DNA of 64,000 nucleotides from Candidatus Parcubacteria bacterium (lineage in GTDB: Bacteria; Patescibacteriota; Minisyncoccia; Phycocordibacterales; Zambryskibacteraceae). Below, piece after piece: positions 2 to 8,262 of this stretch (within the stretch, counting starts at the first letter, position 1; the number at the start of each line of letters is the position of its first letter). The stretch covers positions 20,852 to 84,851 of the forward strand of contig JAIFWN010000001.1 in NCBI GenBank assembly GCA_019658995.1, read 5' to 3'. The position numbers and the translations under genes are program-made. The notes under the pieces were generated by a model. The model saw only the letters and a list, made by a program, of their open reading frames with translations. It had not been told where the DNA came from and did no database searches.

Positions 2-1264
2 GTATCCTCGGCGGCCGAAGTCCTTGCTTTATCTGGGACTAGTAATGGTGTAGGCCTAAGCTTCTACGATGATATCGGTGGCGGTAGCGTTAGAAACTGG
101 GCGATTATCAATGATAAAGTCGGTGCAGGTAGACTGGACTTCGCAGTCTCTGCTGCTTCGGGAGGGTCTCCGTACGCGGCCAATACCACAAAGCTGTATC
201 TGGATAAGACAGGAGAGGTGGGAATTACAGGCTTCCTGACTATTGGTATTGGTAGCACTGGGAATATTTTTACCTCCGATTTGGCCGGTCACATAGGTAT
301 TGGTACTACTACTCCGCAATGGCTCCTTCAGCTCGCCACCTCGACTGCACCCCAGCTAACCCTTTCTGATCCATCCTCACTCACAAATAATCACTGGTCG
401 CTCCGGAACGCGGCGGGCAGGTTCTATCTGGCGACTTCATCGCCAACGACTTTCGCTACCTCCACAGTTGCTTCCTTCTCTATTGATCAAAACGGCAAGG
501 TTTTCCTTAACTCAGGACTCGGTACCGGTGCGGGCGGGAACTATCTGTGTATTGATACAACTACCTACGAAGTGCTGAGGGGTAATGGCGTATCGTGCAC
601 AGCTTCGTCACAAAGGTTCAAGGAAAATATACAAGATCTCGGATACGGTCTCAACGAAATCTTAGCCCTCCGCCCAGTCTCTTATACATATAAGCCGGGA
701 ACGAATATGGGAGAGGGGACTAAGCTCGGTTTTATTGCCGAAGAAGTTCAGACCATACTCCCTGAAGTGGTTACTCTCGACAATCAAGGACAAGTCTTCG
801 GTCTCGATTACCCAGTATTCACTTCTGTACTCACCAAGGCCATACAAGAGTTGAACCAGAAGGTCATTGCAGTCGAGCTTAACCTCGCTAGCGCCTCGAC
901 CTCTCTGGCTATCTCAACTTCAACTCCCGGCTTTGCAGCCTCTGTCCTTGAAGCCTTGGGAGCGACTGTCCAGGATGCGGTGCTCTATATAAAGCATCTG
1001 GTAGTTGATACTCTCACCGCCAAGGACGGCGTGGTTATATATGATCGCGTGACCGGCCAGCCTGTCTGTACCGTTTCGGAAAACGGAGTGCTGAAATCTT
1101 ACCCGGGTGATTGCTCGGTATTGCCACCAGTGCCGATACCGGCATATACCCCTCCTCCGCCCGATCCATCGGCTTCTACTACACCTCCGGACGATTCGAG
1201 CGCGACAACCACTCCGCCCGCAACTCCGCCTGATGAACCGACTGCAACATCTACGGAGCCATGA
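2..1264 (+). CDS. C-terminal part of a tail-fibre-like repeat surface protein; 5' end lies upstream of the window. Contains a GIGTTTP repeat, a C-terminal peptidase S74 intramolecular chaperone domain, and a Pro/Thr-rich tail.
   Basis: The frame is open from nt 2 with no upstream stop. Translation shows HIGIGTTTPQWLL repeats and NYLCIDTTTYEVLRGNGVSCTASSQRFKENIQDLGYGLNEILALRPVSYTYKP...GFIAEEVQTILPEVVTLDNQGQVFGLDYPVFTSVLTKAIQELNQKV. This matches the endosialidase/tail-spike C-terminal intramolecular chaperone (Peptidase_S74) consensus. It is a paralog of the 1912-7788 product. Confidence 0.75.
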   Translation, partial: VSSAAEVLALSGTSNGVGLSFYDDIGGGSVRNWAIINDKVGAGRLDFAVSAASGGSPYAANTTKLYLDKTGEVGITGFLTIGIGSTGNIFTSDLAGHIGIGTTTPQWLLQLATSTAPQLTLSDPSSLTNNHWSLRNAAGRFYLATSSPTTFATSTVASFSIDQNGKVFLNSGLGTGAGGNYLCIDTTTYEVLRGNGVSCTASSQRFKENIQDLGYGLNEILALRPVSYTYKPGTNMGEGTKLGFIAEEVQTILPEVVTLDNQGQVFGLDYPVFTSVLTKAIQELNQKVIAVELNLASASTSLAISTSTPGFAASVLEALGATVQDAVLYIKHLVVDTLTAKDGVVIYDRVTGQPVCTVSENGVLKSYPGDCSVLPPVPIPAYTPPPPDPSASTTPPDDSSATTTPPATPPDEPTATSTEP

Positions 1265-1683
1265 TTTCAAAAAAAGTTATTTTGGCAATTGCTATATTTG
1301 CCGGAGTTCTATTTCTCAGAATGTTTGCGCTGGAAGGATTCTTGGTAAGAGGGGATTCAATGTCGCCGACGATTCTATCCGGGGACTATGTATTCATAAG
1401 CAAGCTGGCGTATAAATTCGGTAATCCGGAGCGCGGAGATATTATAGTGGCCATCACGCGTGACGGACAAAGACTTGTAAAGAGGATCGTGGGCCTTCCT
1501 GGCGAAGTAGTCAAGATTGGGGATTTTAAGACAAATGTCGATCCGGAGGAATATTTTGCCGTTGGAGATAATATTGGCAATAGCATAGACTCCCGCGAGC
1601 TAGGAGCGGTAGATACCTGGAGAGTGAAGGGCAGGGTATTCGGAGCCCTAAGGCTCTCTAAATTTGAATATCTAAGTTTCTAG
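1261..1683 (+). CDS. Short type I signal peptidase (LepB/SipS family, 140 aa) embedded between the two giant surface-protein genes.
   Basis: An N-terminal TM helix is followed by the SPase I boxes: GDSMSPT (catalytic Ser), KRIVGLPGE (catalytic Lys) and GDNIGNSIDSR. It overlaps the upstream stop by 4 nt (ATGA). Confidence 0.8.
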   Translation: MISKKVILAIAIFAGVLFLRMFALEGFLVRGDSMSPTILSGDYVFISKLAYKFGNPERGDIIVAITRDGQRLVKRIVGLPGEVVKIGDFKTNVDPEEYFAVGDNIGNSIDSRELGAVDTWRVKGRVFGALRLSKFEYLSF

Positions 1684-1869
1684 CCATTTTTCTAGTGTAG
1701 GTTTATTAAGGTTTAAGAGGGTCTTACCACTTACTTCAACCAGGCTAATTTGTATTGACTCCAAATATGAGCGTTAAACTCTAATAATGAAATTAATTTA
1801 AATTGAGTTCTCCACAGAAAATCAATAGCAGAGCTTCCATCTGAAATATATAATAAATACAACGTTTTT

Positions 1870-1898
1870 CTTTATCCGATATACCATATCGGGTAAAG
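1870..1898. promoter_or_regulatory. 13-bp near-perfect palindrome (ctttatccgatat-acc-atatcgggtaaag) in the leader 14 nt upstream of the giant gene start. It could be an operator or a 5'UTR hairpin.
   Basis: Read directly from the sequence: the arms are 1870-1882 and 1886-1898 with one mismatch. Confidence 0.35.
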
Positions 1899-1911
1899 AA
1901 ACCCGAAGAAC

Positions 1912-4900
1912 TTGGACAACAAAGAAGCACAAAATGTGCCGCAGGGTGATGGGTGGCTTTCGATGTCGGAGGCGGCTCTTCATACACCCTACAGTTCTGA
2001 GTATCTCTCACTCCTTGCCCGTAAAGGTAAAATCTCCGCAAAGAAGATAGACAACACTTGGTACACCACCAGAGATATTCTTGATTCGTATATGAAGAAG
2101 CAGATGCTTCTTGCTCAGGTGCAAAACGGCGATATCTCTCCCGATCACATATCGGCGCCGAAAATAATTCCAACGCAGGAATCTGTTCCTCTCAAAACTG
2201 TGCGCTCATACGCTGATGATAGTCGCGATTACGACAGCGAGATCGAGAAGCAGAACCACATAAAGTCCATCGAGAATGCGCTAGAAAGAGTCGTAGACAA
2301 AAAATTCGGAAGAGTGGAGAAGTACGAAAGCCTGGTATCGAAAAATTTTTCAGCATTTCGTGATGCATTCGGCAGCAAAGCTATTGTTGTTTCGACTCTC
2401 GTAATTATCGTTTTGTTCACGATCATCCCGATACCCTTCGCCTTCAGCTTTTTTGAAAAGGGTCTGGACTTCGTCAAAGAGCTTGCAAGCGATGCCAATA
2501 CCATAATGGGCTACCGTCCCGGCACCCATAAGAACGAAATACTCCTCCTCGACAAAGACGGAAACATTAGCATCTTTGGCCATATAGAATCACATGTGTC
2601 AAACGGTACTGCTCCGATAGTGGTGGACTCTAAGACCCAGGTGGACAACCTGAATGCGGAATATCTGAACGACATGCATGCGGCCGACTTCACCCTGGCC
2701 TTCGTAACGCAAAACGGCAATGTTACCTCTGAAGATGTAAAGCTAGATGGTACCGTCGAAGTTGGTAAGACACTTGTAGTTAGCGGCGCAACGAAACTCT
2801 TGTCAGCGCTTGAAGTCGGCGGCGGACTCAGGGTGTTCGGCGATGCGGAAATCGGCAAAGCTTTAAGAGTTGTAGGCCCTGCCAGCTTCGAGTCTCTGGT
2901 GACTGTAAAAAATAACCTGGCCGTACAGAGAAACGTTTCCATAAGAGGCGGCCTTGAGATCGGCTCCGGCATTGAGGCAAAATCTGCCGCTTTCAGCAGT
3001 GTCGGCGTATCCGGAACCGTATCGGCCGCTCTCGGTAAGTTTGTCTCCGCAATCATAGACGATATATCGGCGGGAGCGCTGACGGTCTCCTCGACTACGG
3101 CCACGAGTGCCGTAGTTACTAACCTGAACTCCGTCAACCTCACCGGAGCAAGTTCGAGTCTTGCATACTTGACCTTTGATCTGGCTACGGGGACGTCGGC
3201 TACGACGACGAATCTGTTCTCTACCTATCTCACGGCAAGCGGAGCTACCACTACCACTCTCTTTGTAAATAAATTCGATATCCAGCAGGTTACTAATGGC
3301 AGGACAGTTATAGATGCCCGGCGTGTTACAGACTCCGCGCCGTCAGGAGATTTTATTACCTATACCAACGCTGCCGGCAACACGGCCCTCTTCAGGGTAG
3401 ACAACTCAGGTAATATTTTTGCCGGCGGTATTACCAACTCCGGAGCTCTGACTATTACCTCTGCTGTCACTCCGCAGTTTAGGATTCAGTATGATCCGAC
3501 GAACGAAAATACCACTTCCGTTTCTTCAGCCGGAGTTACGACCTTCGGCTTCAACGGCACAACTCCCCGCGCCATATGGATGCCGCAGGCAAACGCAACC
3601 GGAACATTCCAGTTTCAAGATTCATCCGCCAATACTATTTTGGATATTGATACGACAAATCAGAGGGTGGGTATTGGTACGACATCTCCAGCCACCGCTC
3701 TTGATCTGGTTGGCATCGAGGGCATTACCAACGGATATTTGAATGTCTTGCCGGTAAATACGAGCACCTTCAATGCCTTTGCCCTGAAGGGGCGGAATCT
3801 ATCAGCCGGTTCGTCTGTCTCGGTGCCTTACTTCGTGCCTACCGGTACGAATACAAATCAGAAGCTGGCTCTGGACCTCTTGGTCCAAGGGACACCGACG
3901 GATACTGTTGAGCGAGGCGTAGCCTGGATTGATATCACAGATGCCAATGAGACGAACCTGAACTTGGGAAACTACGAAGCCTTAAGCATAGGCAAGTTCA
4001 TAAACGGCCGCGGCAATATCTCCATGGTCGCTGGCGGAACAGGCGTGGTCAGGGACTTGGTATTGCAGGCTGGCGGAGGCAGGGTCGGCATCGGCACGAC
4101 CACTCCTCCAGCGCTACTCTCCGTAAATGATCCGGCCGGAATTGACTCACTTTATATTGGCTCATCGACACCCAAGCTTATAGTCAAACATACTGGTCTC
4201 GTCGGTATTGGCACAGCGGCTCCAAACAAGAAGCTAGATGTGAAGGGCGACATAGCTATCACATCAAGTACTTCGCCGGCAGTGGGTTTGGAGAGATCGC
4301 GCATAAGCGTGTATGACAATGCCATCGAACGCGGCTATATATCCAACTATGTACCAGTTGGCGTGGGCGGGACGAACTTCTCCTCATGGCGCTTCACTGT
4401 GGCCAATAACAGCACACTCTCTGAAGCGATGACTATTGACTATACAGGCAACATCGGTATCGGGACGACCACGCCAATTTCGCTCCTGCATCTGAGCGCT
4501 TCGGTTGTCAACAGCGGACTAGGCACTCTGAGATTATCTCGCCCAGACGCTACCAAAGAGAACTTCATTCGCTTCGATACCAATAATAGTAATTCGCAGT
4601 GGCTTATAGGAATAGACGACAGTACTGGCCAGTCAAGCAATTTCGAGATTATTCCTAATCTAGGAAATTCTGTGTTTGACATAACCACTTTGGGCAACGT
4701 CGGCATCGGGACGACTACGCCGACGTACCGACTGGATGTCTTAAGCGGGACTGGTAATACTGGTACGGGTGGCCATGATGCGAACATTAATGCCCTAGCT
4801 GTGACTGGACCTGATCTGGTGCAGACTTCAGCAGGCGGAAACATCTTTGTAACAACCAATTCTGACTTTGCCATAGACAGAGGAGGATCGATCGGCTTTG

Positions 4901-7788
4901 GCGGCAGATATATAACCGGTTCGTCGAATGATCTGAGCTTCGCAAGCATTAAGGGAGCGAAGGAAAATTCTACCAGTGCGAACCAAAACGGCTATCTGGC
5001 TTTCGCTACCCGCAACAACAACACCGCTACCGCCGCAGAGAGGATGCGCATCGACTCCTCCGGCAACGTCGGCATAGGCACCACAAGCCCTCTTCACTTA
5101 TTGGATGTCAACAATTCTCAAACTACCAACACTGCGGCTGACAATGCTCTGGTGGTTATTCGTTCGGCCAATAGAAGCGCCACCTTACAACTTGACGCAA
5201 AAGCTGGAACGGCATTTGGCGGAATTTCTTTTGCCGATACTGGAGTAGAAAAAGGCAGAATCCAGCTCTCCAACAGCAATTACAGTATGAACTTCCTGAC
5301 CAATGGAACTGAATGGATGACGATCACTTCTACAGGCAACGTCGGTATCGGGGCGACCAATCCGACGAGCGGCAAGCTGCATATGCAGACAACTAGCGCA
5401 GACGATACTCTATATATAGAGACAGTCACCTCCGGAAACCCGATACTATCACTCTCGGCGGCCGGAGTTGGAGGGACACAGCTGTATCAAGATAGAACCT
5501 CAAACTCCTTCCGCATTAAGGCCGAAGGCGGTGCGGATCGTTTAACCATAACTTCTGCCGGAAATGTCGGCATCGGGACGACGACGCCGGGTAGCTTAGG
5601 TTCCGGCGGTACCAGGACTGATCTCCAAATCCATAATGCAGGTACTGATACTACATCCTTCGGCAACCTGATGCTCTCTTCTGGTGCGACTGGCGCCGAC
5701 TCCATCATGGGAGCAATCCAGTTTGGTAGTGCGGGTATCACTGGGTCAGTTGCCCAGAGGACGGCCTTTATTGCCTCTAACAAAGAGTTTGCTAGTGCGA
5801 GCGACCCGGGTGGAAATTTGCGTTTCGCCACTACACTTACAGGTTCGGGCTCTGCTCCGACCGAGAGGATGCGTATAACCAGCTCTGGCAATGTCGGAGT
5901 GGGTACCACGTCTCCGGCTCAACTATTGTCCGTAGGTGGATCGCTTTTCATAGGAGCTTCAGCGGCAGGTGGTACGAGCGGTGGGCTCGGAGTTGGTGTA
6001 GTCAATACGAGTGCGGGAAGTATCGTGACAACAGGTACCGTCTCGGTTGGCAATACCATAAATCTTGGCGGAACCACCGCTCCGAGCGGACTCTTATCAT
6101 GGTCTGGAGCGTCTCCGCTATTGCGCGCTGCGGTTGGCGGGAGTATCAACCTCCAATCAGATAACAACTCCAAGCAGTGGAACTTCGCGGCGGATGGCAG
6201 TACTACGTTTCCTACCGGTGCAGTTTCCGGTATCACCACACTCAGCACCACAGGTTCGATATCGGCAGTAGCTGGTGGCGGAGTCAACATAACGGTTGAC
6301 AGCGACGCTGCCGGAAGCGGATTCAAGCTCAATCGCCTTGGTGCTGAACGCTGGAGCATCAGAAATATCGAAGCAAGTAATTTCCTGGGCTTCTTTGATC
6401 ACCGCGGAACACCGGATTATCGCATGGTGATCAAGGATATTACGGGTTTCGTAGGCATCGGTACTACTACGCCCAACGCCTTACTCAACATTGTTGGAAG
6501 CTCTTCAACTACGAGTCCGCAATTTAGTATCAACTCAAACGGCCTCATCGGCGACAGTGCAGCTTTGATGGTGAATCAGCGCGCCAAGTTCGGCTATGAC
6601 GGTCTACGAAGTGCGGTTTTCATTGATGATGTTGCTACTAATAAACATATTGTCTTCGACACCAACGGATCAGAAAAAATGCGCATTACCCGCACGGGAG
6701 AAGTCGGTATTGGTACAAGTACTCCGCAGGCTGCGCTCGAGGTCAATGGTTCTGTCAGACTAGCAACAGGGATCCTAATACAGAGGACAGCGGGTAGTCC
6801 GGCAAGTTACGCCATTATGAATATTCGAGGCGCGGCCGAGGCCTCGAACTTTGGCAATGCTCTTGGCAACGGGGCGGTGGAAATTTCCGAATTCACCACT
6901 GCAGGCATTATCCTTGGTACGAATAGTGCTAAGCCATTAGCCTTTGGCACGGCCAATACTGAGAGGATGAGGATCGAATCTGGCGGCACTATCAAACTGA
7001 GTTCCGCTCTCGGCACTGGTACCGGGGGCAACTACTTATGTATCGATACCACCACCTTTGAAGTTCTCCGCGGTAACGGTGCGGCATGTACTGCTTCGTC
7101 ACTCCGGTTCAAGGAAAATATAAATGACCTGAACTATGGCCTAGACGAGGTGCTCGCACTACGCCCAGTCTCTTATAATTACAAACCCGAAACCAATATG
7201 GGTTCGGGGGTCAAGCTGGGCTTCATCGCCGAAGAAATGAAGCTCGTGATACCGGAAGTGGTAACGGTTGATAATAACGGCCAGACATTCGGTCTCGATT
7301 ATCCGGTACTGACGTCCGTCCTTACAAAGGCTATTCAGGAACTGAATACTAAAGTGGTGGAGCTCGCTGCAGCGCTCAGTGATCTCGGCGCTACCATCGT
7401 GGATGGAGTCACGCACTTTGCTCGCCTGGCTGTAGAAAATCTATCCGTTGATGCACTCACGTTAGGAAAGCCTGAGAAGCCGGCCGGCATCACCATATAC
7501 GACGAGGCTAATGGAGCACCATTCTGCATAAAGGTGGTCAGCGGTCAGACTGTAACTGTACCTGGTGAGTGTGGCTCTGCTGCGCTCGTAGCAGGCGGCG
7601 GTCCGACCGTCACGATCTTTACACCGGTCGAAATTATCGAACCTACGCCCGGGCTTGAAGCTTCAACCACATTGCCTGTAATCGAGCCAGCGGCGACCTC
7701 CACGCCCGAAACTGCTTCGAGCACTCCGCCGGCTGATCCGGAGCCAGTGCCCCTGACGAGCGCCTCTACGACATCCGATACTATATAA
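1912..7788 (+). CDS. Giant (1958 aa) tail-fibre-like surface protein. It has an N-terminal excisionase-type HTH-like segment, one TM anchor, about 11 GxVGIGTTxP repeats, a C-terminal peptidase S74 intramolecular chaperone domain, and a Pro/Thr/Ser-rich tail.
   Basis: The ORF is 5877 nt. The N-terminus LSMSEAALHTPYSSEYLSLLARKGKISAKKIDNTWYTTRDILDSY resembles an HTH_17/excisionase fold. A TM helix (AIVVSTLVIIVLFTIIPIPFAFSFF) follows. The repeats read MRI(D/T)SSGNVGIGTT(S/T)P..LL(D/S)V. The C-terminus NYLCIDTTTFEVLRGNGAACTASSLRFKENINDLNYGLDEVLALRPVSYNYKP...GFIAEEMKLVIPEVVTVDNNGQTFGLDYPVLTSVLTKAIQELNTKV is the S74 CIMCD. Confidence 0.8.
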   Translation: MDNKEAQNVPQGDGWLSMSEAALHTPYSSEYLSLLARKGKISAKKIDNTWYTTRDILDSYMKKQMLLAQVQNGDISPDHISAPKIIPTQESVPLKTVRSYADDSRDYDSEIEKQNHIKSIENALERVVDKKFGRVEKYESLVSKNFSAFRDAFGSKAIVVSTLVIIVLFTIIPIPFAFSFFEKGLDFVKELASDANTIMGYRPGTHKNEILLLDKDGNISIFGHIESHVSNGTAPIVVDSKTQVDNLNAEYLNDMHAADFTLAFVTQNGNVTSEDVKLDGTVEVGKTLVVSGATKLLSALEVGGGLRVFGDAEIGKALRVVGPASFESLVTVKNNLAVQRNVSIRGGLEIGSGIEAKSAAFSSVGVSGTVSAALGKFVSAIIDDISAGALTVSSTTATSAVVTNLNSVNLTGASSSLAYLTFDLATGTSATTTNLFSTYLTASGATTTTLFVNKFDIQQVTNGRTVIDARRVTDSAPSGDFITYTNAAGNTALFRVDNSGNIFAGGITNSGALTITSAVTPQFRIQYDPTNENTTSVSSAGVTTFGFNGTTPRAIWMPQANATGTFQFQDSSANTILDIDTTNQRVGIGTTSPATALDLVGIEGITNGYLNVLPVNTSTFNAFALKGRNLSAGSSVSVPYFVPTGTNTNQKLALDLLVQGTPTDTVERGVAWIDITDANETNLNLGNYEALSIGKFINGRGNISMVAGGTGVVRDLVLQAGGGRVGIGTTTPPALLSVNDPAGIDSLYIGSSTPKLIVKHTGLVGIGTAAPNKKLDVKGDIAITSSTSPAVGLERSRISVYDNAIERGYISNYVPVGVGGTNFSSWRFTVANNSTLSEAMTIDYTGNIGIGTTTPISLLHLSASVVNSGLGTLRLSRPDATKENFIRFDTNNSNSQWLIGIDDSTGQSSNFEIIPNLGNSVFDITTLGNVGIGTTTPTYRLDVLSGTGNTGTGGHDANINALAVTGPDLVQTSAGGNIFVTTNSDFAIDRGGSIGFGGRYITGSSNDLSFASIKGAKENSTSANQNGYLAFATRNNNTATAAERMRIDSSGNVGIGTTSPLHLLDVNNSQTTNTAADNALVVIRSANRSATLQLDAKAGTAFGGISFADTGVEKGRIQLSNSNYSMNFLTNGTEWMTITSTGNVGIGATNPTSGKLHMQTTSADDTLYIETVTSGNPILSLSAAGVGGTQLYQDRTSNSFRIKAEGGADRLTITSAGNVGIGTTTPGSLGSGGTRTDLQIHNAGTDTTSFGNLMLSSGATGADSIMGAIQFGSAGITGSVAQRTAFIASNKEFASASDPGGNLRFATTLTGSGSAPTERMRITSSGNVGVGTTSPAQLLSVGGSLFIGASAAGGTSGGLGVGVVNTSAGSIVTTGTVSVGNTINLGGTTAPSGLLSWSGASPLLRAAVGGSINLQSDNNSKQWNFAADGSTTFPTGAVSGITTLSTTGSISAVAGGGVNITVDSDAAGSGFKLNRLGAERWSIRNIEASNFLGFFDHRGTPDYRMVIKDITGFVGIGTTTPNALLNIVGSSSTTSPQFSINSNGLIGDSAALMVNQRAKFGYDGLRSAVFIDDVATNKHIVFDTNGSEKMRITRTGEVGIGTSTPQAALEVNGSVRLATGILIQRTAGSPASYAIMNIRGAAEASNFGNALGNGAVEISEFTTAGIILGTNSAKPLAFGTANTERMRIESGGTIKLSSALGTGTGGNYLCIDTTTFEVLRGNGAACTASSLRFKENINDLNYGLDEVLALRPVSYNYKPETNMGSGVKLGFIAEEMKLVIPEVVTVDNNGQTFGLDYPVLTSVLTKAIQELNTKVVELAAALSDLGATIVDGVTHFARLAVENLSVDALTLGKPEKPAGITIYDEANGAPFCIKVVSGQTVTVPGECGSAALVAGGGPTVTIFTPVEIIEPTPGLEASTTLPVIEPAATSTPETASSTPPADPEPVPLTSASTTSDTI

Positions 7789-7797
7789 TAGAGCGCA

Positions 7798-8262
7798 ATG
7801 GAAAGAGACAGCATTAAAGAGTTTTTCCAAAAGAAGGCCGAGGAAGAACGCAGTAACAGCCTTATGCCGGTTTTAGAACACCGTAAGGAGGAGATTAAGA
7901 GGTCTGAGGTGGAGAAAGACCGTAGCCAAAATCTCAAGCAGGCTTCTGTAATATGGCTCGGAGCCATAGCAGCATGTACGCTCATAGTTTACGGAGGTTC
8001 GATGATCTTCGACAGGTATAAGATGATTACCGATAACAGTCCGGCAAGTATAGTGGCCCAGGTGGGGAGAGTGGTGGATCTGCCGAAGGATGAAATGCCA
8101 ACTATCGCCACAATAACTACTATGGAAAATCTTCGCGACCAGCCTTTCTTCAAGGATGCCATGGTAGGGGACAAGGTTATTGTCTTCAATAATTCCAGAA
8201 AGGCCATACTCTACCGGCCCGGAACGAAGAAGGTCATAGGAGTCGCAACCCTTTCGGAATAA
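7798..8262 (+). CDS. Hypothetical membrane-anchored protein (154 aa): charged N-terminus, one TM helix, then an extracytoplasmic domain.
   Basis: The ORF lies directly downstream of the giant gene. The TM helix is ASVIWLGAIAACTLIVYGG. I recognise no family. Confidence 0.4.
   Translation: MERDSIKEFFQKKAEEERSNSLMPVLEHRKEEIKRSEVEKDRSQNLKQASVIWLGAIAACTLIVYGGSMIFDRYKMITDNSPASIVAQVGRVVDLPKDEMPTIATITTMENLRDQPFFKDAMVGDKVIVFNNSRKAILYRPGTKKVIGVATLSE

What the first reader, a model, noticed from the sequence alone, without database searches (positions are those of the whole stretch)
1912..2460. Excisionase-type HTH-like module fused in front of a TM anchor at the N-terminus of the 1958-aa extracellular protein
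Residues ~17-60 (LSMSEAALHTPYSSEYLSLLARKGKISAKKIDNTWYTTRDILDSY) fit the HTH_17/excisionase/MerR-N-terminal pattern (helix, turn, recognition helix, then a K.G..W wing). A cytoplasmic linker and one TM helix (aa ~147-172) follow, then about 1800 extracellular residues. A cytoplasmic DNA-binding head on a giant surface fibre suggests a one-component trans-membrane signalling or autoregulatory arrangement, or that the annotated start is too far upstream.
Basis: inference. Interest (0 to 1): 0.55.

Follow-up and report, generated by a model that had tools for sequence, protein, structure and literature searches.

The report
DNA-binding head on membrane-anchored surface fibre
The giant surface-fibre protein of this Parcubacteria-type (CPR) bacterium starts with a real cytoplasmic DNA-binding domain, and a conserved palindrome in its own promoter, found with this domain type even in unrelated proteins, suggests the fibre represses its own gene.

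Summary

This is not a one-off. A profile search finds 3651 cluster representatives, mostly from CPR/Patescibacteria. They carry 1-3 N-terminal copies, one TM helix and ectodomains of up to about 7,600 aa.

It sits a fixed ~22 nt after a TATAAT box and occurs almost nowhere else. The same half-site, ATCCGATA, flanks the promoters of 10/10 unrelated soluble Fic proteins that carry the same HTH subtype.

Best reading, inferred and not tested: a membrane-tethered, negatively autoregulating DNA-binding head. The alternative of a mis-called start is rejected. No literature description was found.

The parts
1261..1683 (+). Signal peptidase I (S26) gene directly upstream on the same strand; conserved neighbour of this gene
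   Evidence: Pfam Peptidase_S26, E 3.6e-30. A homologue lies directly upstream on the same strand in 34 of 80 related loci, including essentially all close orthologues.
1849..1854 (+). TATAAT -10-like box of the fibre gene's presumptive promoter
   Evidence: Read from the sequence. A TATAAT-like hexamer ends 17-24 nt (mode 22) before the palindrome core in about 30 of 33 N5-type loci. The generic promoter scan found no full -35/-10 pair here.
1867..1901 (.). Inverted repeat TTTCTTTATCCGATAT-ACC-ATATCGGGTAAAGAAA. The conserved core CCGATAT-ACC-ATATCGG is at 1876-1892. Proposed operator, about +10 to +35 of the transcript.
   Evidence: Arms are 16 nt and 94% complementary. The core is unique in the window, with 0.07 expected. 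It is conserved upstream of orthologues. As RNA it would also fold, at -19.8 kcal/mol, z -4.6.
1912..1914 (+). TTG start codon
   Evidence: It is the first start codon after the in-frame stop at 1894-1896. In-frame TTG followed by AAC/GAC is conserved at the same place in orthologues. Public gene calls use the same start.
1954..2130 (+). Winged helix-turn-helix domain (aa 15-73), MerR/excisionase (HTH_17) type. The recognition helix is aa 28-38 (SSEYLSLLARK) and the wing is aa 41-53.
2131..2379 (+). Cytoplasmic linker (aa 74-156), partly disordered and not conserved
   Evidence: pLDDT is below 50 for aa 81-116. Linker length in the family runs from 18 to 292 aa, median 74. The alignment shows no conservation.
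2380..2454 (+). Single hydrophobic helix (aa 157-181): a membrane anchor or the h/c-region of a very long signal peptide. It ends in the conserved PxPxxF[GS]FF, with a possible signal-peptidase site AFS|FF after aa 179.
   Evidence: Hydropathy analysis. Conserved helix end in orthologues. Cleavage was not tested.
2491..2553 (+). Conserved juxtamembrane extracellular motif DANTIMGYRPGTHKNEILLLD (aa 194-214)
   Evidence: Conserved in the single-HTH class: 27 of 36 representatives of at least 300 aa, against 1 of 65 tandem-HTH ones.
2455..7785 (+). Extracellular fibre region (aa 182-1958) with GIGTT-type repeats
   Evidence: Translation. Eleven G[IV]G[TA][TSA] motifs.
7096..7263 (+). Peptidase_S74 intramolecular chaperone domain (aa 1729-1784)
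   Evidence: Pfam E 5.2e-12, 46.3 bits against a cut-off of 22.

Best explanation
The first ~73 residues are a cytoplasmic winged-helix DNA-binding domain of the MerR/excisionase (HTH_17) kind. A flexible linker and one N-in membrane helix tether it to a ~1780-residue extracellular tail-fibre-like protein.

The domain most likely recognises the half-site (AT)CCGATA(Y). That half-site occurs as a compact palindrome about 22 nt downstream of the -10 box of the protein's own gene. Binding there would repress transcription, so fibre production would be limited by the number of fibre heads already in the membrane. This would be product feedback without a separate regulator.

Shown here: the fold, homology to HTH_17, the N-terminal-HTH / single-TM architecture as a large CPR-wide family, the conserved palindrome and its near-exclusive position, and co-occurrence of the same half-site with the same HTH subtype in unrelated Fic proteins.

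Inferred: N-in topology, physical binding of the HTH to the palindrome, repression as the sign of regulation, and action while still membrane-bound.
For: Fold and homology
- The Pfam HTH_17 match runs end to end.
- Relatives score 34-45 bits, above the cut-off.
- AlphaFold core pLDDT is above 90.

Family
- The profile search finds 3651 representatives.
- Of the 151 family proteins examined, the HTH is N-terminal in 1-3 copies and a single TM helix follows in nearly all full-length ones. Ectodomains reach 7569 aa.
- 76 of 81 genome loci come from CPR/Patescibacteria bins.

Topology
- The positive-inside rule favours N-in, 75 members to 5.

Cis element
- CGATA-N5-TATCG occurs 33 times in 430 kb of loci, and 31 of these lie 0-160 nt before the domain.
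- CGATA-N3-TATCG occurs 26 times, always upstream of the family gene.
- Spacers N4, N6 and N7 never occur.
- Eight more loci carry the element with one mismatch.
- A tandem-HTH member has it 39 nt before its start.
- The distance from the TATAAT box is fixed.

Reverse test
- In a metagenome scan for the palindrome, 10 of 36 N3 hits were followed by the domain. None of 92 N4/N5 hits were (Fisher p 1.1e-6).

Independent architecture
- Soluble Fic proteins carry the same HTH subtype at their C-terminus (58% identity, same recognition helix).
- They have CCGATA/TATCGG pairs within 160 nt upstream in 10 of 10 independent loci. That is 33 times the background density (Poisson 1.7e-32).

Experimental precedent
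- The Fic-HTH protein CccR represses its own promoter through widely spaced inverted repeats (PMC9755527).

DNA rather than hairpin
- The innermost Y/R positions of the arms vary independently.
- Stem extensions show no excess of G-U over A-C.
- The Fic sites are everted and cannot form the same hairpin.
Against: - No binding experiment exists.
- The window's own copy is below the Pfam threshold.
- The palindrome would also make a stable 5' RNA hairpin, and its flanks are often self-complementary with differing sequences.
- Within CPR, the closest loci also share the TM helix and the juxtamembrane motif, not just the HTH. The CPR-only association therefore cannot single out the HTH. Only the Fic comparison does that.
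- Spacing differs between subfamilies (N5 against N3), and a few loci lack a recognisable site.
- Small stand-alone ORFs with the same HTH exist (L066, L075, L077) and could be the real regulators.
- Topology and non-cleavage of the hydrophobic segment are predicted only from simple rules.
Confidence: 0.6

Rival explanations
1. Secretion-coupled release. The hydrophobic segment is the core of a giant, cleavable signal peptide. The neighbouring signal peptidase cuts after aa 179 (AFS|FF), freeing the fibre and leaving an HTH-linker-helix stub. The stub, or a further-processed soluble HTH, is the active repressor. Each export event would then deposit one regulator molecule.
For: - The S26 signal-peptidase gene lies directly upstream in 34 of 80 loci and in essentially all close orthologues.
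- The helix ends in the conserved PxPxxF[GS]FF, with small residues at -3/-1: ASA|F in L016, VSA|F in L033, VFG|F and VFS|F elsewhere.
- The hydrophobic core before the prolines is only about 15 residues, which is signal-peptide-like.
Against: - No cleavage predictor or proteomic data were available.
- The protein has no other anchor, such as a C-terminal TM helix or a sortase signal, so cleavage would release the fibre.
- In tail-fibre-like proteins with a C-terminal S74 chaperone, the N-terminus is the attachment end (established knowledge of endosialidase-type fibres).
- Small -3/-1 residues are common by chance.
Confidence: 0.15
2. The palindrome acts as a 5'-terminal RNA hairpin, for example stabilising a long mRNA or controlling translation. 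The HTH-like module is not a DNA binder and instead mediates a protein contact or binds the RNA, as the RodZ HTH binds MreB.
For: - The element lies just after the presumptive transcription start.
- It folds at -19.8 kcal/mol, z -4.6.
- Its flanks extend the stem with different sequences in different loci.
- N3-type relatives have a long structured leader downstream of it.
Against: - The arms are conserved in sequence while the centre varies.
- The innermost positions do not covary.
- G-U is not favoured over A-C in stem extensions (32 against 51).
- Extra single half-sites occur, as do direct (L080) and everted (Fic) arrangements that cannot form the hairpin.
- The best structural neighbours are DNA binders.
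Confidence: 0.1
3. The HTH does bind the site, but its role is architectural rather than regulatory. It would tether the gene or chromosome to the membrane, as RacA anchors DNA, or act as a decoy for a separate soluble regulator of the same HTH subtype.
For: - RacA is among the structural neighbours.
- Stand-alone small ORFs with this HTH exist (L066 94 aa, L075 91 aa, L077 86 aa).
- CPR cells are tiny, so membrane tethering of DNA is easy (inference).
Against: - There is one site per gene, placed at a fixed distance from the -10 box. That is typical of an operator, not an anchoring array.
- In the Fic proteins the sites flank the promoter, as in the experimentally proven CccR repressor.
Confidence: 0.1
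4. Annotation artefact. Translation really starts at ATG 1963 or later, and the HTH-like stretch is not part of the protein.
For: - 1912 is a TTG with no clear Shine-Dalgarno sequence.
Against: - ATG 1963 lies inside the domain, after the conserved Trp15 and strand 1.
- The domain is fused N-terminally in thousands of relatives.
- The in-frame TTG is conserved in orthologues.
Confidence: 0.02

Closest known systems
ToxR/CadC/TcpP-type membrane-bound one-component transcription regulators
   Same: N-terminal cytoplasmic winged-helix DNA-binding domain, a flexible linker, a single TM helix and an extracytoplasmic domain in one polypeptide. The protein acts on DNA at the membrane (CadC description in PMC5430869, seen).
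   Different: - Their DNA-binding domain is OmpR/PhoB-type, whereas this one is MerR/excisionase-type.
- Their outer part is a small sensor domain, whereas here it is a ~1780-aa structural fibre.
- They activate other operons, whereas here the conserved site sits in the protein's own promoter region.
Fic proteins with a C-terminal HTH, including the experimentally studied CccR of Yersinia pseudotuberculosis
   Same: A subgroup of more than 7000 homologues carries the same HTH subtype (58% identity). These proteins have the same CCGATA half-sites around their own promoters. CccR is a proven autorepressor acting through inverted repeats 26 bp apart (PMC9755527).
   Different: - They are soluble enzymes with the HTH at the C-terminus.
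- Their half-sites are everted or widely spaced rather than forming a compact palindrome.
- CccR's own HTH and site (AGATAATCAT) are different sequences.
Small MerR-like/excisionase winged-helix proteins (BldC, phage and ICE Xis/RdfS, terminase small-subunit HTH)
   Different: - Those are stand-alone 50-130-aa soluble proteins that often bind direct repeats cooperatively.
- No integrase or terminase context exists here.
- This domain has its own near-invariant recognition helix, YSxEYLSLLARKGK.
RodZ
   Same: Cytoplasmic HTH, single TM helix and extracytoplasmic domain.
   Different: The RodZ HTH is Xre-type and binds MreB rather than DNA (my own knowledge). Here a conserved DNA site accompanies the domain.
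Phage tail fibres and endosialidase-type spikes with a C-terminal Peptidase_S74 intramolecular chaperone
   Same: The C-terminal S74 domain is present, along with a repetitive fibre-like body. Such proteins trimerise and shed the chaperone (established knowledge).
   Different: This one is chromosomal, membrane-anchored at its N-terminus, and carries a DNA-binding head.
Extended signal peptide regions (ESPR) of very large autotransporters and two-partner-secretion (TPS) proteins
   Same: A conserved N-terminal extension precedes the hydrophobic export segment of very large surface proteins (my own knowledge).
   Different: ESPR is about 25 residues and unstructured, with no nucleic-acid-binding fold and no associated operator.

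Membership tests
Pfam HTH_17 (PF12728) / MerR-excisionase winged-helix clan | Sequence match to the family profile at or above the curated cut-off (27 bits) | tested here: inconclusive
   The window copy scores 17.6 bits (E 0.0046) but covers the profile end to end, 1-50 of 51. Close relatives in the same family score 34.3-44.9 bits, so membership follows by transitive homology.
Pfam HTH_17 (PF12728) / MerR-excisionase winged-helix clan | Fold: strand, helix, recognition helix, two-stranded wing, C-terminal helix | tested here: met
Pfam HTH_17 (PF12728) / MerR-excisionase winged-helix clan | Sequence-specific DNA binding | not testable with these tools
   Only comparative evidence is available: a conserved half-site accompanies the domain in two unrelated architectures.
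Excisionase / recombination directionality factor | Small stand-alone protein encoded next to an integrase within a mobile element | tested here: not met
   The domain is the head of a 1958-aa ORF. Its neighbours are signal peptidase and other cellular genes, with tRNA genes elsewhere in the window. No integrase is adjacent.
MerR-family transcription regulators | N-terminal winged helix, a long dimerising coiled coil and a C-terminal effector-binding region; operator inside a 19-20-bp promoter spacer | tested here: not met
   After helix 3 come a disordered linker and a TM helix. The palindrome lies about 22 nt downstream of the -10 box, not between -35 and -10.
ToxR-like membrane-bound one-component regulators | Cytoplasmic DNA-binding domain of the OmpR/PhoB winged-helix type | tested here: not met
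ToxR-like membrane-bound one-component regulators | Bitopic N-in topology with one TM helix between the DNA-binding and extracytoplasmic parts | tested here: met
   There is a single hydrophobic segment at aa 157-181. The positive-inside rule favours N-in in 75 family members against 5. This is prediction only.
ToxR-like membrane-bound one-component regulators | Extracytoplasmic domain senses a signal that changes transcription | not testable with these tools
   The outer part is a fibre with an S74 chaperone. No sensor domain was recognised.
Peptidase_S74 (endosialidase-chaperone) tail-fibre-like proteins | C-terminal intramolecular chaperone domain above the Pfam cut-off | tested here: met
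   46.3 bits against a cut-off of 22, aa 1729-1784.
RodZ | Xre-type (HTH_25) cytoplasmic domain | tested here: not met
   No Xre-type hit was found; the domain is HTH_17-like.

The most novel reading that the evidence does not exclude
The HTH head is the first part of the nascent chain to leave the ribosome. It could bind the operator of the very gene copy being transcribed and translated. That would couple gene, mRNA, ribosome and translocon at the membrane (transertion) and shut the promoter while one giant fibre, up to about 7,900 aa in relatives, is being made. This would be a cis-acting, one-at-a-time production control for giant surface proteins. Because the same operator and head recur on many different ectodomains, it would define a surface-protein regulon that needs no dedicated transcription factor in these reduced genomes.
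Probability: 0.15. Interest if true: 0.85.

Novelty: new variant of a known kind. Interest (0 to 1): 0.7.

Why it matters
CPR/Patescibacteria have tiny genomes, few recognisable regulators and many huge surface proteins of unknown biology, thought to mediate attachment to host cells. This finding gives a concrete and testable regulatory unit for them:

- a defined DNA-binding domain subtype;
- a defined 7-8-bp half-site;
- a defined promoter geometry.

The unit recurs in thousands of genes. It suggests that structural surface proteins carry their own repressor, which is an unusually economical form of product feedback. It links that module to a very large group of Fic-HTH proteins in other bacteria and archaea, whose operators can now be predicted. 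It also supplies an unannotated family that current Pfam and NCBIfam models barely detect.

Tried and rejected
- Paralogues in the window. A phmmer search of the N-terminus against all six-frame ORFs of the window found no second copy.
- Sequence search of PDB with the domain profile. No hit was found, so the fold had to be reached through structure prediction.
- Rfam on the upstream region and on related loci. Nothing scored above noise.
- Generic promoter and terminator scan. It found no promoter pair, and the one terminator-like site lies on the minus strand inside the ORF. I judged that site to be chance.
- G-U against A-C counts in stem extensions, as a test for a sense-strand RNA hairpin. 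There was no G-U excess.
- Viral-contig scan for the everted Fic-type site. It gave 25 hits, none with the domain, which is about chance level and uninformative.
- RNAalifold on the long leader of N3-type loci. The MAFFT alignment was too poor for a clean consensus, although the first hairpin visibly covaries.
- Literature searches for this architecture in CPR. Nothing relevant was found.
- Excisionase or prophage reading. Rejected, because there is no integrase and the context is chromosomal with tRNA and housekeeping genes.
- Mis-called start.
Full report
**1. What is in the sequence**

The ORF 1912..7788 (+) encodes 1958 aa and opens with TTG. The frame is closed by a stop at 1894-1896, so the only possible starts before the conserved region are TTG 1912, GTG 1936 and ATG 1963. 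The same protein with the same start is already in the public collection (P0036 is identical).

Pfam gives a weak HTH_17 match that nevertheless covers the profile end to end. It spans aa 15-64 on profile positions 1-50 of 51, at E 0.0046 and 17.6 bits against a cut-off of 27. Pfam also gives a solid Peptidase_S74 match at aa 1729-1784. NCBIfam finds nothing useful.

The gene directly upstream (1261-1683) is a signal peptidase I. The ORF before that (218-1264) is the C-terminal part of another S74 fibre protein. The window carries 14 tRNA genes and ordinary cellular ORFs, so the context is chromosomal and not a prophage.

**2. The HTH is real**

A word-indexed search found seven relatives with a strikingly conserved core, WLSMSEAA..TPYSxEYLSLLARKGKLxxKKIxNTWYTT......Y. 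One of them is a Parcubacteria MAG protein with the same HTH-linker-TM-fibre layout.

An exhaustive profile search with the 64-residue core found 3651 cluster representatives at E<=1e-3 and 1314 at E<=1e-10. Several relatives pass the HTH_17 gathering threshold at 34-45 bits. The window copy therefore belongs to that superfamily by transitive homology.

AlphaFold predicts strand 15-17, helix 18-22, helix 29-38, strands 44-46 and 49-53, and helix 54-72, with pLDDT above 90. A disordered linker follows (aa 81-116 below 50), then a long hydrophobic helix. A domain-only model with 36 aligned sequences gives the same fold at pLDDT 84.

Foldseek on the longer model agrees.

**3. Architecture and topology**

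I examined 151 family proteins. The domain sits at the N-terminus in one, two or three tandem copies. Nearly every protein long enough to show it has exactly one strongly hydrophobic segment, 18-292 residues (median 74) after the last HTH. The regions beyond it run from a few tens of residues to 7569 residues.

K+R in the 15 residues before the helix averages 3.1, against 1.6 after it. The N side is larger in 75 proteins and the C side in 5. The positive-inside rule therefore puts the HTH in the cytoplasm.

Ectodomains differ widely: S74 plus collagen repeats, LVIVD propellers, or nothing recognisable. Two classes appear:
- Single-HTH proteins, like this one, share a juxtamembrane motif, NT(V/I)MG(F/Y)RPGTHxNEILLLD (27 of 36).
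- Tandem-HTH proteins almost never have it (1 of 65).

Of 81 loci recovered from species-representative genomes, 76 are labelled as CPR/Patescibacteria or as unclassified bins with the CPR-type architecture. The groups named include Parcubacteria/Paceibacterota, Zambryski-, Yanofsky-, Kaiser-, Taylor-, Taga-, Ryan-, Sungi- and Doudnabacteria, and generic 'Saccharibacteria' labels.

**4. The start codon**

Met18 (ATG 1963) lies inside the fold, after the conserved Trp15 and strand 1. In the orthologues an in-frame TTG followed by AAC/GAC sits at the same short distance after the palindrome. Examples are TTG AAC CCC GAA CTT... in L003, L009 and L013. The idea that the HTH results from a start called too far upstream is rejected.

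**5. The palindrome**

The window has 16-nt arms at 1867-1882 and 1886-1901, 94% complementary. The core CGATA-N5-TATCG occurs once in 64 kb, where 0.07 is expected.

Across about 430 kb of related loci the counts are:
- The N5 form occurs 33 times. Thirty-one lie 0-160 nt before the domain, and the other two at -191 and -281.
- An N3 form occurs 26 times, always upstream of the family gene.
- N4, N6 and N7 forms never occur.

Allowing one mismatch adds eight loci. A tandem-HTH member fetched separately has CCGATA-CGT-CATCGG 39 nt before its start. Other loci carry the half-site in direct or single arrangements. In total about 66 of 76 CPR loci have a recognisable palindromic form.

A TATAAT-like box ends 17-24 nt (mode 22) before the core in about 30 of 33 N5 loci. 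In the window it is at 1849-1854. The element therefore sits roughly at +10 to +30 of the transcript, a classical repressor position.

I also ran a reverse test. A metagenome scan for ATCCGATA-N(3-5)-TATCGGAT gave 10 of 36 N3 hits followed within 700 nt by the domain. None of 39 N4 hits and none of 53 N5 hits were. The N4 class gauges the chance background (Fisher p 1.1e-6).

**6. The decisive comparison: Fic proteins**

Five loci from non-CPR bins (Chloroflexia, Anaerolineae, Leptospirales, Alkalispirochaeta and a Bathyarchaeota bin) encode ~320-aa Fic proteins. Their C-terminal 50 residues are this same HTH subtype, at 58% identity with the same YSxEYLSLLARKG recognition helix. This Fic-HTH group has more than 7000 homologues.

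Upstream of these genes the same half-sites appear. They are everted, as TATCGGAT-N17-ATCCGATA around a -10-like box, or inverted with N7/N8 spacing.

Five further independent Fic-HTH loci all showed them. Overall 10 of 10 loci have at least two CCGATA/TATCGG hexamers within 160 nt upstream. That is 33 times the density of the rest of the loci (Poisson 1.7e-32).

The only thing shared by the Fic proteins and the CPR fibre proteins is the HTH. The half-site therefore belongs to the HTH. An experimental precedent exists in CccR, a Fic protein with a different C-terminal HTH. CccR represses its own promoter through 10-bp inverted repeats 26 bp apart (PMC9755527).

**7. DNA site or RNA hairpin?**

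As RNA, 1861-1915 would fold at -19.8 kcal/mol (z -4.6). Flanks often lengthen the stem with different sequences.

Four observations argue against a hairpin:
- The arms are conserved in sequence while the centre varies.
- The innermost Y/R positions vary independently. C/A non-pairs occur 8 times against 6.6 expected (Fisher p 0.39).
- G-U is not favoured over A-C in stem extensions (32 against 51).
- Extra single, direct and everted half-sites occur that cannot form the hairpin.

I therefore favour protein-DNA recognition of independent CCGATAY half-sites. A secondary role for the hairpin in the mRNA is not excluded.

**8. Mechanism proposed**

Shown: a MerR/Xis-type winged helix at the cytoplasmic N-terminus of a bitopic fibre protein, and a conserved palindrome of that domain's cognate half-site just downstream of the -10 box of its own gene.

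Inferred: two heads bind the palindrome and block transcription. The heads could come from neighbouring chains, and S74 fibres are trimeric by established knowledge. The amount of fibre already inserted would then set the rate of new synthesis.

Whether the outer fibre modulates this (signalling) is unknown.

One variant deserves weight. The signal-peptidase gene is a conserved neighbour (34 of 80 loci), and the helix ends in PxPxxF[GS]FF with small -3/-1 residues. The hydrophobic segment may therefore be a cleaved, very long signal peptide that leaves an HTH stub behind.

**9. Comparison with known systems**

In logic it works like ToxR/CadC-type membrane-bound regulators. It fails their defining OmpR-type domain and has no sensor domain.

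By domain it belongs to the HTH_17/MerR-Xis clan. It is neither an excisionase (no integrase, not stand-alone) nor a MerR regulator (no coiled-coil or effector domain, and the operator is not in the promoter spacer).

Its nearest functional relatives are the Fic-HTH autoregulators. Four literature searches found no description of this CPR family.

**10. Verdict**

The mis-annotation alternative is rejected.

It is a new variant of a known kind, a membrane-tethered autoregulator. It represents a large, essentially unannotated family. Binding, sign of regulation, topology and cleavage remain to be tested.

Noticed in passing
L035 2735-2990 (also L031, L036, L037, L041, L045, L049, L053, L055, L058, L064, L066): In relatives with the N3 palindrome, a 170-280-nt leader separates the palindrome from the ORF. 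It contains a conserved ~100-nt element with these parts in order: AAAAAC; a GC-rich hairpin whose sequence differs between loci while pairing is kept; an invariant GGAATGCAC(G/A)CC; a second hairpin; and TTTAATTATA. Rfam has no match. It may be an undescribed cis-regulatory RNA. The window's own gene lacks it.
   Followed up: partly
L062, L067, L074, L078, L079, L227, L229, L230, L231, L233 (upstream of the Fic genes): A very large group of Fic proteins with a C-terminal HTH of this subtype has predicted operators made of the same half-site. They appear as TATCGGAT-N17-ATCCGATA around the -10 box, as three such pairs in L079, or as inverted repeats with N7/N8 spacing. This predicts autorepression like that of CccR.
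   Followed up: yes
window 1261-1683 and 2440-2448: A signal peptidase I gene is a conserved upstream neighbour of this gene (34 of 80 loci). The hydrophobic helix ends in the conserved PxPxxF[GS]FF, which is AFS|FF in the window. The 'anchor' may therefore be a cleavable signal peptide with a 156-residue N-terminal extension.
   Followed up: partly
window 7773-7789: A single ATCCGATA half-site lies in the last codons of the fibre ORF, directly before a TATAAT (7784-7789) and the ATG of the next ORF (7798..8262, 154 aa, no family hit). The 8-mer occurs five times in the window against about two expected, so this may be chance.
   Followed up: partly
window 218-1264: The ORF that runs off the window start is the C-terminal part of a second fibre protein. 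It has its own Peptidase_S74 domain and a Pro/Thr-rich tail very like the end of the 1958-aa protein, so the two are tandem paralogues. Its N-terminus is outside the window, so whether it also has an HTH head is unknown.
   Followed up: no
L066 2977-3258, L075 2932-3204, L077 2947-3204; L001 2945-3568: Complete small ORFs of 86-94 aa consist of little more than this HTH. A 205-aa protein with a weaker copy (31 bits) lies upstream of the signal peptidase gene in L001. A 79-aa MerR/HTH_17 gene is also nearby in L001. These are possible soluble partners or competitors for the same sites.
   Followed up: no
L083 5141-5212, L092 721-792, L135 7342-7413, L161 1562-1628 (sample Ga0210040): In one metagenome, pairs of ATCCGATA-N5-TATCGGAT palindromes 46-51 nt apart recur on several contigs with no HTH gene nearby. 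This looks like an unrelated repeat element that happens to share the arms.
   Followed up: no
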